Shown here piece after piece: positions 53,901-56,712 of a stretch of DNA of 64,000 nucleotides. The stretch lies in NCBI RefSeq assembly GCF_013167455.1, contig NZ_CP038328.1. The stretch is one strand, 5' to 3'. Made by a program: the position numbers. Numbering within the stretch: the first letter of the stretch is position 1; the number at the start of each line of letters is the position of its first letter. The DNA comes from Escherichia coli O157:H7 (GTDB taxonomy: Bacteria > Pseudomonadota > Gammaproteobacteria > Enterobacterales > Enterobacteriaceae).

Positions 53901-56712
53901 ACTGTTTAATCCTGCTAACGGCACCTGCTTTGCCTCTTTCGGTGCGCATCCTGATTTTGGCGTAGCACTGGAACGTACCGTGACCGAGCTGCTGCAAGGT
54001 CGTGGCCTGAAAGATTTGGATGTGTTTACTCCGCCAACCTTCGATGATGAAGAAGTCGCTGAACATACCAACCTCGAAACGCACTTTATCGATTCCAGCG
54101 GTTTAATCTCCTGGGACCTGTTCAAGCAGGATGCCGATTATCCGTTTGTGGACTGGAATTTCTCCGGCACCACGGAAGAAGAGTTTGCTACGCTGATGGC
54201 TATCTTCAACAAAGAAGATAAAGAAGTTTATATTGCCGATTACGAGCATCTGGGCGTTTATGCTTGCCGTATTATCGTGCCTGGCATGTCCGATATTTAT
54301 CCGGCTGAAGATCTGTGGCTCGCGAATAACAGTATGGGCAGCCATTTACGTGAAACGATTCTTTCGCTACCAGGCAGCGAGTGGGAAAAAGAAGATTACC
54401 TGAACCTCATCGAGCAACTGGATGAAGAAGGTTTTGATGACTTTACCCGCGTGCGTGAGCTGTTGGGTCTGGCGACCGGGTCGGATAACGGTTGGTACAC
54501 CCTGCGTATTGGTGAATTAAAAGCCATGCTGGCGCTGGCTGGTGGCGATCTGGAACAGGCTCTGGTCTGGACCGAATGGACGATGGAGTTTAACTCATCG
54601 GTATTCAGCCCGGAACGCGCCAACTATTATCGCTGCCTGCAAACGTTGTTATTACTGGCGCAGGAAGAAGATCGCCAGCCGCTGCAATATCTGAATGCGT
54701 TTGTTCGCATGTACGGCGCAGATGCCGTGGAAGCCGCCAGTGCGGCAATGAGCGGCGAAGCGGCGTTTTATGGCTTGCAACCAGTAGATAGCGATCTGCA
54801 CGCGTTTGCTGCACATCAGTCGCTGTTGAAGGCCTACGAAAAGCTGCAGCGCGCCAAAGCAGCATTCTGGGCAAAATAAAATCAAATAGCCTACGTAATG
54901 TAGGCTTAATGATTCGTCTGAGTTATATTACGGGGCGTTTTTTTAATGCCCCGCTTTACATATATTTGCATTAATAAAATAATTGTAATTATAAGGTTAA
55001 ATATCGGTAATTTGTATTTAATAAATACGATCGATATTGTTACTTTATTCGCCTGATGCTCCCTTTTAATTAACTGTTTTAGCGGAGGATGCGGAAAAAA
55101 TTCAACTCATTTGTTAATTTTTAAAATTTATTTTTATTTGGATAATCAAATATTTACTCCGTATTTGCATAAAAACCATGCGAGTTACGGGCCTATAAGC
55201 CAGGCGAGATATGATCTATATCAATTTCTCATCTATAATGCTTTGTTAGTATCTCGTCGCCGACTTAATAAAGAGAGAGTTAGTGTGAAAGCTGACAACC
55301 CTTTTGATCTTTTACTTCCTGCTGCAATGGCCAAAGTGGCCGAAGAGGCGGGTGTCTATAAAGCAACGAAACATCCGCTTAAGACTTTCTATCTGGCGAT
55401 TACCGCCGGTGTTTTCATCTCAATCGCATTCGTCTTCTATATCACAGCAACCACTGGCACAGGCACAATGCCCTTCGGCATGGCAAAACTGGTTGGCGGC
55501 ATTTGCTTCTCTCTGGGACTGATTCTTTGTGTTGTCTGCGGAGCCGATCTCTTTACTTCCACAGTGTTGATTGTTGTTGCTAAGGCGAGTGGGCGCATCA
55601 CCTGGGGTCAGTTGGCTAAAAACTGGCTAAATGTCTATTTTGGCAACCTGGTCGGCGCACTGCTGTTTGTACTTTTAATGTGGCTTTCCGGCGAGTATAT
55701 GACCGCAAATGGTCAATGGGGACTAAACGTCCTACAAACCGCCGACCACAAAGTGCACCATACTTTTATTGAGGCCGTCTGCCTTGGTATCCTGGCAAAC
55801 CTGATGGTATGTCTGGCAGTATGGATGAGTTATTCTGGCCGCAGCCTGATGGACAAAGCGTTTATCATGGTGCTGCCGGTCGCGATGTTTGTTGCCAGCG
55901 GTTTTGAGCACAGTATCGCAAACATGTTTATGATCCCGATGGGTATTGTAATCCGCGACTTCGCATCTCCGGAATTCTGGACCGCTGTCGGTTCTGCACC
56001 GGAAAATTTTTCTCACCTGACCGTGATGAACTTCATCACTGATAACCTGATTCCGGTTACGATCGGTAATATTATCGGCGGTGGTTTGTTGGTTGGGTTG
56101 ACATACTGGGTCATTTACCTGCGTGAAAACGATCACCATTAATGGTTGTCGAAGTACGCAGTAAATAAAAAATCCACTTAAGAAGGTAGGTGTTACATGT
56201 CCGAGCTTAATGAAAAGTTAGCCACAGCCTGGGAAGGTTTTACCAAAGGTGACTGGCAGAATGAAGTAAACGTCCGTGACTTCATTCAGAAAAACTACAC
56301 TCCGTACGAGGGTGACGAGTCCTTCCTGGCTGGCGCTACTGAAGCGACCACCACCCTGTGGGACAAAGTAATGGAAGGCGTTAAACTGGAAAACCGCACT
56401 CACGCGCCAGTTGACTTCGACACCGCTGTTGCTTCCACCATCACCTCTCACGACGCTGGCTACATCAACAAAGCGTTGGAAAAAGTTGTTGGTCTGCAGA
56501 CTGAAGCTCCGCTGAAACGTGCTCTTATCCCGTTCGGTGGTATCAAAATGATCGAAGGTTCCTGCAAAGCGTACAACCGCGAACTGGACCCGATGATCAA
56601 AAAAATCTTCACTGAATACCGTAAAACTCACAACCAGGGCGTGTTCGACGTTTACACTCCGGACATCCTGCGTTGCCGTAAATCCGGTGTTCTGACCGGT
56701 CTGCCAGATGCT

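What the first reader, a model, noticed from the sequence alone, without database searches (positions are those of the whole stretch)
55211..55290. FNR-like palindrome and GTG start for focA
aTGATctatATCAAt followed 9 bp later by tataat sits ~60 bp upstream of the GTG (55285) that opens the FocA homology. The ORF track's longer ATG-initiated frame (55111) is AT-rich, non-homologous leader. The spacing is not canonical class II FNR, so the architecture deserves a check.
Basis: partly seen in the sequence, partly recalled or inferred. Interest (0 to 1): 0.2.

Follow-up and report, generated by a model that had tools for sequence, protein, structure and literature searches.

The report
Known focA FNR promoter, GTG start
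This is the long-studied oxygen-responsive (FNR) control region and GTG start codon of the E. coli formate-channel gene focA; both features are real, and the odd spacing comes from two overlapping promoters that share one FNR site.

Summary
The window is E. coli O157:H7 ycaO-focA-pflB-pflA. Its intergenic region lines up with K-12 without indels, so K-12 experiments map base for base.

The palindrome is the FNR site mapped by ChIP-seq in K-12. The motif alone is not above chance. Its weight comes from ChIP occupancy and from conservation: in 85 Enterobacterales loci the half-sites hold while the central spacer varies.

The "non-canonical spacing" arises because TATAAT is not the FNR-activated -10. 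An extended -10, TGtTAGTAT (55244-55252), lies 29.5 bp from the site centre. That puts FNR at -40.5/-41.5 of the FNR-dependent TSS (~55258), which is canonical class II. TATAAT drives an overlapping promoter whose TSS (A55248) was mapped in aerated culture; FNR sits at -30.5 of it, over its -35 region. Both hexamers keep a fixed offset from the FNR site in all 85 loci.

GTG 55285 is the real start, supported by RefSeq annotation, PDB 3KCU, codon-position periodicity that begins there, and in-frame stops 4-12 codons upstream in other genera. The longer ORF starts with TTG, not ATG, and holds no in-frame ATG.

All of this is already known. Interest is low.

The parts
55211..55224 (.). FNR binding site ATGATCTATATCAA (centre 55217.5)
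   Evidence: 9/10 match to TTGAT-N4-ATCAA. It is identical to the ChIP-seq-bound, PWM-scored K-12 site TTGATATAGATCAT at 953750 (U00096.2) in Myers 2013 Table S6. Coordinates were mapped through the indel-free alignment. Half-sites are kept in 85/85 loci while the N4 spacer varies.
55234..55239 (+). -10 hexamer TATAAT of the upstream overlapping promoter. I recall this as Sawers' 'P6A'; the name is from memory.
   Evidence: Perfect consensus hexamer. A TSS was mapped 9 nt downstream in K-12. It reads TATAAT in 79/85 loci, TATACT in 5 and CATAAT in 1, always at a fixed offset from the FNR site.
55248..55248 (+). TSS of the upstream overlapping promoter (A). The FNR centre is at -30.5 relative to it.
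   Evidence: Kim et al. 2012 TSS-seq: TSS 953726 (U00096.2), 56 reads, 37-nt 5'UTR, flanking sequence identical to the window. Cells were grown in M9 glucose with agitation. Mapped.
55244..55252 (+). Extended -10 TGtTAGTAT of the FNR-dependent promoter P6
   Evidence: The hexamer starts 29.5 bp from the FNR centre, which is the class II geometry. TAGTAT is kept in 84/85 loci. TG is invariant, while the 'n' base varies T/C in Serratia and Yersinia. The matching -35 position, ATTTCT at 55224-55229, is only 2/6 to consensus, as expected for an activator-dependent promoter.
55258..55259 (+). P6 transcription start (FNR at -40.5 or -41.5)
   Evidence: Myers 2013 Table 1 gives the top FNR site at -40.5 of the known TSS, which maps to 55258. 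The -41.5 figure and 55259 are from my memory of Sawers' papers. A sigma70 ChIP peak maps to ~55279 and rises from 285 to 2026 anaerobically (Table S2).
55273..55279 (+). Weak Shine-Dalgarno region GAGAGAG
   Evidence: Invariant in all Enterobacteriaceae loci. The 30S-seq preprint reports that mutating this SD abolishes 30S binding and focA-lacZ expression.
55285..56142 (+). focA coding sequence, GTG start, 285 aa plus stop
   Evidence: RefSeq annotation in O157 and K-12. 100% identical over residues 1-285 to PDB 3KCU. Pfam PF01226. Codon-position entropy is 0.08/0.05/0.94 from the GTG onward.
55111..55284 (+). Mechanical N-terminal ORF extension (TTG start). It is non-coding: promoter DNA and 5'UTR.
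   Evidence: No family or structure match. No codon periodicity, 0.50/0.43/0.41. It is interrupted by in-frame stops 4-12 codons upstream of the GTG in 20 of 79 Enterobacteriaceae loci and in Hafnia, Edwardsiella, Serratia and Erwiniaceae.
55279..55296 (+). Predicted 6-bp hairpin GUUAGU/GCUGAC with the GUG start codon in its hexaloop (tentative)
   Evidence: It is the centroid structure in folds of both short 5'UTRs, but the folds are not more stable than shuffled sequence. The only two lineage changes, in Serratia and Erwiniaceae, keep pairing.

Best explanation
The region 55211-55287 is the proximal control region of the focA-pflB operon. It is identical to K-12.

One FNR dimer site (55211-55224) serves two overlapping sigma70 promoters whose starts lie 10 bp apart, about one helical turn.

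Without active FNR (aerobic growth), RNA polymerase uses TATAAT (55234-39) and starts at A55248. The -35 position of that promoter (ATGATC, 55211-16) is the upstream FNR half-site itself.

With active [4Fe-4S]-FNR (anaerobic growth), the bound dimer covers that -35 region. It sits at -40.5/-41.5 of the second promoter, P6, which has the extended -10 TGtTAGTAT and a TSS at ~55258. From there it activates as a class II activator, and focA-pflB transcription rises.

Either transcript carries a short leader of 27 or 37 nt. Translation of FocA begins at GUG 55285 behind a weak GAGAGAG Shine-Dalgarno. The apparent longer ORF from TTG 55111 is promoter and leader DNA, not protein.

Shown by data:
- FNR occupancy.
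- The two TSS positions.
- The anaerobic gain in sigma70 occupancy.
- The GTG start.

Inferred from geometry, and from my recollection of Kaiser & Sawers 1997:
- That FNR occludes the upstream promoter while activating the downstream one.
For: 1. Identity. The window is 100% identical to O157:H7. It is collinear with K-12 across the whole intergenic region, with 2 SNPs, both far upstream.

2. FNR binding.
- Myers 2013 reports an FNR ChIP-seq peak at 953,741-953,746 (window ~55228-55233).
- The PWM site TTGATATAGATCAT at 953750 is flagged as bound and is exactly this site.
- Its listed location is -40.5, and the operon is classed as directly FNR-activated.
- Trotter 2011 states that FNR inactivation inhibits promoter 6 of focA-pflB.

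3. Geometry. The FNR centre is 29.5 bp from TAGTAT, preceded by TGn, and the -35 is poor.

4. Second TSS. A55248 has 56 reads in aerated culture, 9 nt after TATAAT.

5. Sigma70 occupancy at ~55279 rises about 7-fold anaerobically. In Table S12, which compares WT aerobic and anaerobic expression, focA is listed with a value of 0.145; I read this as an aerobic/anaerobic ratio.

6. Conservation.
- In 85 loci from Enterobacteriaceae, Hafniaceae, Yersiniaceae and Erwiniaceae, both hexamers sit at a fixed offset from the FNR site.
- The distance from the site to the start codon varies from 74 to 81 bp, because indels fall only between promoter and SD.
- The block ATAATGCTTTGTTAGTATC is invariant in all 75 distinct Enterobacteriaceae sequences.
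- The 100-bp core is at least 99% identical in 5423 of 5424 E. coli records.

7. Start codon.
- GTG in 84/85 loci and TTG in Serratia.
- Periodicity starts at the GTG.
- Synonymous variation in codons 6-14 shows that translation starts upstream of Met15.
- The PDB chain 3KCU begins MKADNPFD.
- Toeprinting and SD mutagenesis in the 30S-seq preprint support the same start.
Against: - I could not read the primary promoter-mapping papers (Sawers & Boeck 1989; Kaiser & Sawers 1995, 1997). The name 'P6A' and the occlusion mechanism therefore rest on memory plus geometry.
- The P6 TSS position comes second-hand, from Myers' -40.5 entry.
- No anaerobic single-nucleotide TSS data set was accessible, and no data exist for the O157 strain itself.
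- The 9-nt gap between TATAAT and A55248 is at the long end of the usual range.
- Both -10 hexamers are so conserved that comparative data cannot say which one matters more.
Confidence: 0.9

Rival explanations
1. Single-promoter model. TATAAT/A55248 is the only proximal promoter, and FNR regulates it from the unusual position -30.5.
For: TATAAT is a perfect hexamer. The only single-nucleotide TSS I could retrieve directly is A55248.
Against: - That TSS was mapped in aerated culture, where FNR is inactive.
- Myers 2013 places the site at -40.5 of the known FNR-dependent TSS.
- An extended -10 with exact class II spacing is present and conserved. Its free 'n' base is the only base that varies.
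- An activator centred at -30.5 would overlap the sigma region 4 contact site.
Confidence: 0.05
2. The palindrome is a chance match, or is bound by CRP rather than FNR.
For: Matches of this quality occur at the chance rate in the window. FNR and CRP sites are related.
Against: - ChIP-seq shows FNR occupancy at exactly this site.
- The half-sites are TTGAT-type, not TGTGA-type.
- The half-sites are kept and the spacer is free in 85 loci.
Confidence: 0.02
3. FocA is longer and starts upstream, at TTG 55111 or another in-frame near-cognate codon.
For: An open frame of 58 codons precedes the GTG. Automated gene calls of 325-398 aa exist in protein databases.
Against: - There is no in-frame ATG.
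- The extension lies upstream of both proximal TSSs.
- It shows no periodicity.
- In-frame stops lie 4-12 codons upstream in many genera.
- It has no homology.
- The 398-aa form reads the TGA stop at 55054 as Trp.
Confidence: 0.01
4. FocA starts at the internal ATG, codon 15 (55327). K. pneumoniae MGH78578 is annotated this way, at 816 nt.
For: The ATG is conserved in 84/85 loci, and at least one genome is annotated that way.
Against: - Codons 6-14 vary almost only at third positions while the amino acids are kept.
- Toeprinting and SD mutations place initiation at the GUG.
- The 3KCU chain matches the query from its residue 1 at the GTG. This shows the depositors used the GTG start; it does not prove the native N-terminus.
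Confidence: 0.02

Closest known systems
E. coli K-12 focA-pflB proximal regulatory region (FNR-dependent promoter P6 with its overlapping upstream promoter; Sawers laboratory)
   Same: Base-for-base identical from 54916 to beyond the start codon. It has the same FNR site, the same two -10 elements and the same GTG start.
   Different: Nothing in the sequence differs. The only difference is that the strain is O157:H7, for which I found no direct TSS or ChIP data.
Canonical class II FNR-activated promoters (dmsA, narG, nirB, yfiD and others; site at about -41.5)
   Same: A TTGAT-N4-ATCAA-type site centred at -40.5/-41.5, a weak -35, and activation under anaerobiosis. It is listed alongside these promoters in Myers 2013 Table 1.
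   Different: A second promoter with a perfect TATAAT is nested 10 bp upstream, with its -35 position inside the FNR site. The same bound FNR should therefore block one start while activating the other. The operon also has a distal ArcA/IHF-controlled promoter region and internal 5' ends.
FocA formate channel, FNT family (PDB 3KCU; Pfam PF01226)
   Same: 100% identity over residues 1-285. PF01226 covers residues 15-276 of FocA.
   Different: None.
E. coli genes with gtGTG start sites and weak or absent SD (PMC9841429 Table 3); focA and skp as GUG-start mRNAs helped by upstream 30S sites (30S-seq preprint)
   Same: focA is itself listed in both sources. The GTGTGA context is present at 55283-55288.
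   Different: None; this is the same gene.

Membership tests
Class II FNR-activated promoter | DNA site matching TTGAT-N4-ATCAA | tested here: met
   ATGATCTATATCAA matches 9/10. Half-sites are kept in 85/85 orthologous loci.
Class II FNR-activated promoter | Site centred near -41.5 of the TSS, about 29.5 bp upstream of the -10 hexamer | tested here: met
   The centre at 55217.5 is 29.5 bp from TAGTAT at 55247. The published location is -40.5. The feature is not met for TATAAT/A55248, where the site is at -30.5.
Class II FNR-activated promoter | FNR occupies the site in vivo | tested here: met
   From the literature only: a ChIP-seq and ChIP-chip peak and a bound PWM site in K-12. The sequence is identical. 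Not measured in O157.
Class II FNR-activated promoter | FNR-dependent anaerobic activation of transcription | tested here: met
   From the literature only. The operon is listed as FNR-activated (Tables 1 and S8), sigma70 occupancy rises from 285 to 2026, and focA has a value of 0.145 in Table S12, the aerobic versus anaerobic comparison.
Overlapping (tandem) promoter pair sharing one regulator site | Two distinct TSSs, each with its own -10 element | tested here: met
   A55248 follows TATAAT. The ~55258 start follows TGtTAGTAT. Both hexamers sit at a fixed offset in 85 loci.
Overlapping (tandem) promoter pair sharing one regulator site | Regulator binding switches use from one start to the other | not testable with these tools
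   Inferred from geometry, since the FNR site covers the -35 position of the upstream promoter, and from my memory of Kaiser & Sawers 1997. The primary paper is not held in the library.
FocA / formate-nitrite transporter (PF01226) | Sequence membership above the curated threshold and identity to a solved FocA | tested here: met
   PF01226 scores 262.5 bits against a cutoff of 34.6. 3KCU matches at E=1e-189 over residues 1-285.
Non-AUG (GUG) translation start | The coding signal begins at the GUG, with no usable upstream or downstream alternative | tested here: met
   Periodicity onset, synonymous variation in codons 6-14, upstream in-frame stops in other genera, and GTG in 84/85 loci with TTG in 1/85.
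Non-AUG (GUG) translation start | Ribosome initiation complex forms at this codon | tested here: met
   From the literature only: a tRNAi-dependent toeprint at the focA start, and loss of expression on SD mutation (30S-seq preprint).

The most novel reading that the evidence does not exclude
The total invariance of two stretches across about 25 genera may reflect more than the two promoters and the protein. The stretches are the 19-nt block ATAATGCTTTGTTAGTATC and the segment from the SD through codon 5, where even synonymous sites do not vary. There could be an undescribed RNA-level element at the translation start that sets the low FocA:PflB ratio and is under its own selection. Candidates are the hairpin that presents the GUG in its loop (55279-55296) and the out-of-frame GUG-UGA 'start-stop' (55283-55288).
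Probability: 0.2. Interest if true: 0.3.

Novelty: already known. Interest (0 to 1): 0.08.

Why it matters
The region controls how much formate channel and pyruvate formate-lyase E. coli makes when oxygen runs out. That control is central to mixed-acid fermentation and, according to published work, is under selection in the gut.

For the scan, the value is mainly a clean negative. The 'odd spacing' is explained by a known pair of overlapping promoters, and the GTG start is correct.

It is also a useful caution. Pairing a regulator site with the best-looking TATAAT can give a false 'non-canonical' architecture. Weak-start genes like focA are mis-annotated in both directions in public databases, with versions from 272 aa (816 nt) up to 398 aa.

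Tried and rejected
- Primary Sawers papers. I tried PubMed 2651404, PMC209925 and PMC206030; none is held.
- Text searches. Searches for P6A, 'promoter 6A', 'P6 promoter' and the title of Kaiser & Sawers 1997 returned nothing relevant.
- Other TSS data sets. The Cappable-seq supplement (PMC4782308) had no entries for focA or for the coordinates I searched. Thomason 2015 is not held. Mendoza-Vargas 2009 has no focA entry.
- Generic promoter scan. It missed both proximal promoters because neither has a 4/6 -35 hexamer. It reported only the distal TTTACA-17-AATAAT.
- Search of 50%-identity protein representatives, meant to reach Vibrio or Pasteurellaceae focA loci. It returned only hits of 53% identity or less among full-length proteins, because closer relatives collapse into the query's own cluster. 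The comparison therefore stops at the order Enterobacterales.
- Rfam. No family reached threshold in 54800-56300.
- A long-range RNA pairing (55243-50 with 55291-98) as the reason for the invariant block. I rejected it because the fold is not significant (z = -1.4), and because the T-to-C change at 55246 in Serratia and Yersinia would break the pairing yet fits the free 'n' of a TGn extended -10.
- My first guess that TTAATTAACTG (55066-82) is the main ArcA site. I dropped it because the published ArcA ChIP site is at 54972-55025.

Full report
**What the window is.** A 521-bp query around the finding matches 5423 of 5426 complete E. coli genomes and is 100% identical to O157:H7 strain PV15-279. 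In that strain the annotation reads ycaO, focA, pflB, with focA starting at the position equal to window 55285. In K-12 MG1655 focA is b0904, at 953609-954466 on the complement strand. Aligning window 54851-55351 with the K-12 intergenic region gives no indels and only two SNPs (54896 and 54915), both far upstream of the finding. K-12 experimental coordinates therefore transfer exactly: window = 1009751 minus the U00096.3 coordinate, and U00096.2 = U00096.3 minus 777.

**The observation.**
- ATGATCTATATCAA at 55211-55224.
- Nine bases, TTTCTCATC.
- TATAAT at 55234-55239.
- GTG at 55285, opening MKADNPFD.

One detail is wrong. The long mechanical ORF at 55111 begins with TTG, not ATG. No in-frame ATG exists between the upstream stop (TGA 55054) and the GTG.

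As a bare motif the palindrome is unremarkable. There are four one-mismatch matches in the window against 2.9 expected, and 31 of 100 shuffles do as well.

**Is the palindrome an FNR site?** Yes. Myers et al. 2013 (PMC3688515) report the following:
- An FNR ChIP peak at 953,741-953,746 (window about 55228-55233).
- A bound PWM site, TTGATATAGATCAT, at 953750. This is the reverse complement of exactly this 14-mer.
- A location of -40.5 relative to the known TSS.
- Classification of focA-pflB as directly FNR-activated.
- A sigma70 peak mapping to about 55279 that rises from 285 to 2026 anaerobically.

Trotter et al. 2011 state that inactivating FNR inhibits promoter 6 of focA-pflB.

I added comparative evidence. 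The set was 79 loci from about 25 genera of Enterobacteriaceae, plus Hafnia, Edwardsiella, Serratia, Yersinia and an Erwiniaceae genome, plus the window itself. In all 85 sequences the half-sites ATGAT and (A/G)TCAA are kept, while the central bases take 13 different forms. This is the pattern expected of a dimer-contacted site.

**Why the spacing looked wrong.** A TSS 7-9 nt after TATAAT puts FNR near -28 to -30, which is not an activating position. Thirteen bases further on lies TGtTAGTAT (55244-55252), an extended -10. Three points fit a class II activator-dependent promoter:
- The hexamer starts 29.5 bp from the FNR centre, exactly the distance between -41.5 and -12.
- The corresponding -35 position (ATTTCT) is only 2/6 to consensus.
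- A start at 55258/55259 reproduces the published -40.5, or the -41.5 that I recall from the Sawers papers.

**TATAAT is also a real promoter.** Kim et al. 2012 mapped a focA TSS at 953726 (U00096.2) in cells grown in M9 glucose with agitation. It has 56 reads and a 37-nt 5'UTR, and the 51-nt flanking sequence equals window 55198-55248. That start is A55248, nine bases after TATAAT and ten bases upstream of P6. FNR is centred at -30.5 of it.

With a 17-bp spacer, the -35 position for TATAAT is ATGATC (55211-16), which is the upstream FNR half-site. I infer that bound FNR excludes polymerase from the upstream register and recruits it one helical turn downstream. This matches my recollection of Kaiser & Sawers 1997 ('overlapping promoters', P6A). 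I could not retrieve that paper, so the name and the occlusion step are marked as memory plus inference.

**Conservation of the architecture.** At a fixed offset from the FNR site:
- The first hexamer is TATAAT in 79 loci, TATACT in 5 and CATAAT in 1.
- The second hexamer is TAGTAT in 84 and TAGACT in 1.
- The preceding TG is invariant. The base after it is T in 83 and C in 2.

In contrast, the distance from the FNR site to the start codon ranges from 74 to 81 bp, because indels fall only between the promoter block and the Shine-Dalgarno. The site is therefore positioned relative to the promoters, not the gene. Within E. coli, the 100-bp core is at least 99% identical in 5423 of 5424 records. 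Because both hexamers are conserved, comparison cannot rank them; it does argue that both are used.

**The start codon.** The evidence for GTG 55285 is as follows:
- RefSeq annotation in two strains.
- The solved FocA chain 3KCU aligns 1-285 with residues 59-343 of the long ORF. Pfam PF01226 covers residues 73-334 of that ORF, and the 58-residue extension matches nothing.
- Mean column entropy by codon position is 0.08/0.05/0.94 in the first 58 codons after the GTG. It is 0.50/0.43/0.41 in the 58 'codons' before it.
- The open stretch upstream varies from 4 to 86 codons among genera. Stops lie 4-12 codons upstream in 20 of 79 Enterobacteriaceae loci and in Hafnia, Edwardsiella, Serratia and Erwiniaceae.
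- The codon is GTG in 84 loci and TTG in Serratia, never ATG.
- Codons 6-14 vary almost only at third positions. This excludes the internal Met15 used in the K. pneumoniae MGH78578 annotation of 816 nt.
- A 2025 preprint reports a tRNAi-dependent toeprint at this start and loss of expression when the weak GAG-type SD is mutated.
- A 2022 NAR paper lists focA among gtGTG-start genes.
- Both proximal TSSs lie downstream of most of the 'extension', so it is not even present on those mRNAs.

**Comparison with what is known.** This is not a relative of the K-12 focA-pflB P6 region; it is that region. It passes every membership test for a class II FNR promoter that I could apply. The two in vivo criteria rest on published K-12 data for an identical sequence. 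Nothing in the finding is new.

**What remains open.** The FNR-dependent TSS is second-hand here, and no anaerobic single-nucleotide TSS set was accessible. The promoter-switch mechanism was not tested by me.

The SD-to-codon-5 segment is invariant even at synonymous sites. It folds into a small hairpin that places the GUG in its loop. The only two lineage changes keep the pairing, but the fold is not more stable than shuffled sequence. This is the basis of the modest 'novel case'.

**Verdict.** The feature is already known and ordinary in the sense of being fully explained. Interest 0.08.

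Noticed in passing
window 55084-55091: A strong Shine-Dalgarno-like GGAGG is followed directly by ATG, about 200 nt upstream of the focA start. It matches the upstream 30S-binding site ('focA-213 uRBS') of the 30S-seq preprint, whose mutation lowers focA expression about 10-fold. It is moderately conserved among Enterobacteriaceae.
   Followed up: partly
window 55283-55288: GTGTGA: an out-of-frame GUG two bases before the real start is followed at once by UGA, a minimal 'start-stop' noted in the preprint. It is invariant in 84/85 loci and lost in Serratia, which has GTTTGA and a TTG start.
   Followed up: partly
window 55279-55296: A predicted 6-bp hairpin, GUUAGU/GCUGAC, has the GUG start codon in its hexaloop. 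Codons 1-5 show no synonymous variation. The two lineage changes (Serratia G-to-A at 55291, Erwiniaceae A-to-G at 55295) keep the pairing. The fold is not statistically more stable than shuffles.
   Followed up: partly
window 54972-55025: The published ArcA ChIP site with four direct repeats (Park 2013, K-12 953949-954002) maps here. The conserved TGTAA, GGTTAAAT and GGTAA blocks in the alignment coincide with it.
   Followed up: partly
window 55095-55160: A long, highly conserved AT-rich block contains a perfect IHF consensus, AATCAAATATTTA, at 55144-55156. This is consistent with the IHF site I recall from the literature lying between the distal and proximal promoters.
   Followed up: no
window 54924-54990: Two candidates exist for the distal promoter. 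The first is a conserved TATATT (54924-29) plus ACGGGGC with a TSS at 54937, used as the focA TSS in the 30S-seq table, with an anaerobically induced sigma70 peak at ~54942. The second is TTTACA-17-AATAAT (54955-83), listed as a 'constitutive promoter' by Shimada 2014. I did not resolve which one is Sawers' P7.
   Followed up: partly
L088 1752-2449 (equivalent to window ~55002): E. coli strain TUM14668 carries an IS1 inserted in the ycaO-focA intergenic region, between the distal and proximal promoters. Lourenco et al. 2016 report recurrent adaptive IS insertions upstream of focA during mouse gut colonisation.
   Followed up: partly
window 55054-55284; proteins P0001, P0008, P0012: Public protein collections hold N-terminally over-extended FocA calls of 325, 353, 359 and 398 aa. 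The 398-aa form stands for 4963 member sequences and reads the TGA stop at 55054 as Trp. K. pneumoniae MGH78578 focA is instead annotated too short, at 816 nt, starting at Met15.
   Followed up: yes
window 55189-55209: The block GGCCTATAAGCCAGGCGAGAT lies immediately upstream of the FNR site, at about -69 to -49 of P6. It is strongly conserved within Enterobacteriaceae but not in Hafniaceae, Yersiniaceae or Erwiniaceae. I have no explanation for it; an alpha-CTD contact or another regulator are possibilities.
   Followed up: no
window 10827-10840, 12843-12856, 61456-61469: Three other one-mismatch matches to the FNR consensus occur in the window. Their number is about what chance predicts, and I did not examine their contexts.
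   Followed up: no
window 54885-54961: A sub-threshold Rfam match to DapZ (26 bits against a gathering score of 56, E=0.06) spans the two hairpins after the ycaO stop (54888-54906 and 54931-54953). It is probably chance or generic terminator similarity.
   Followed up: no
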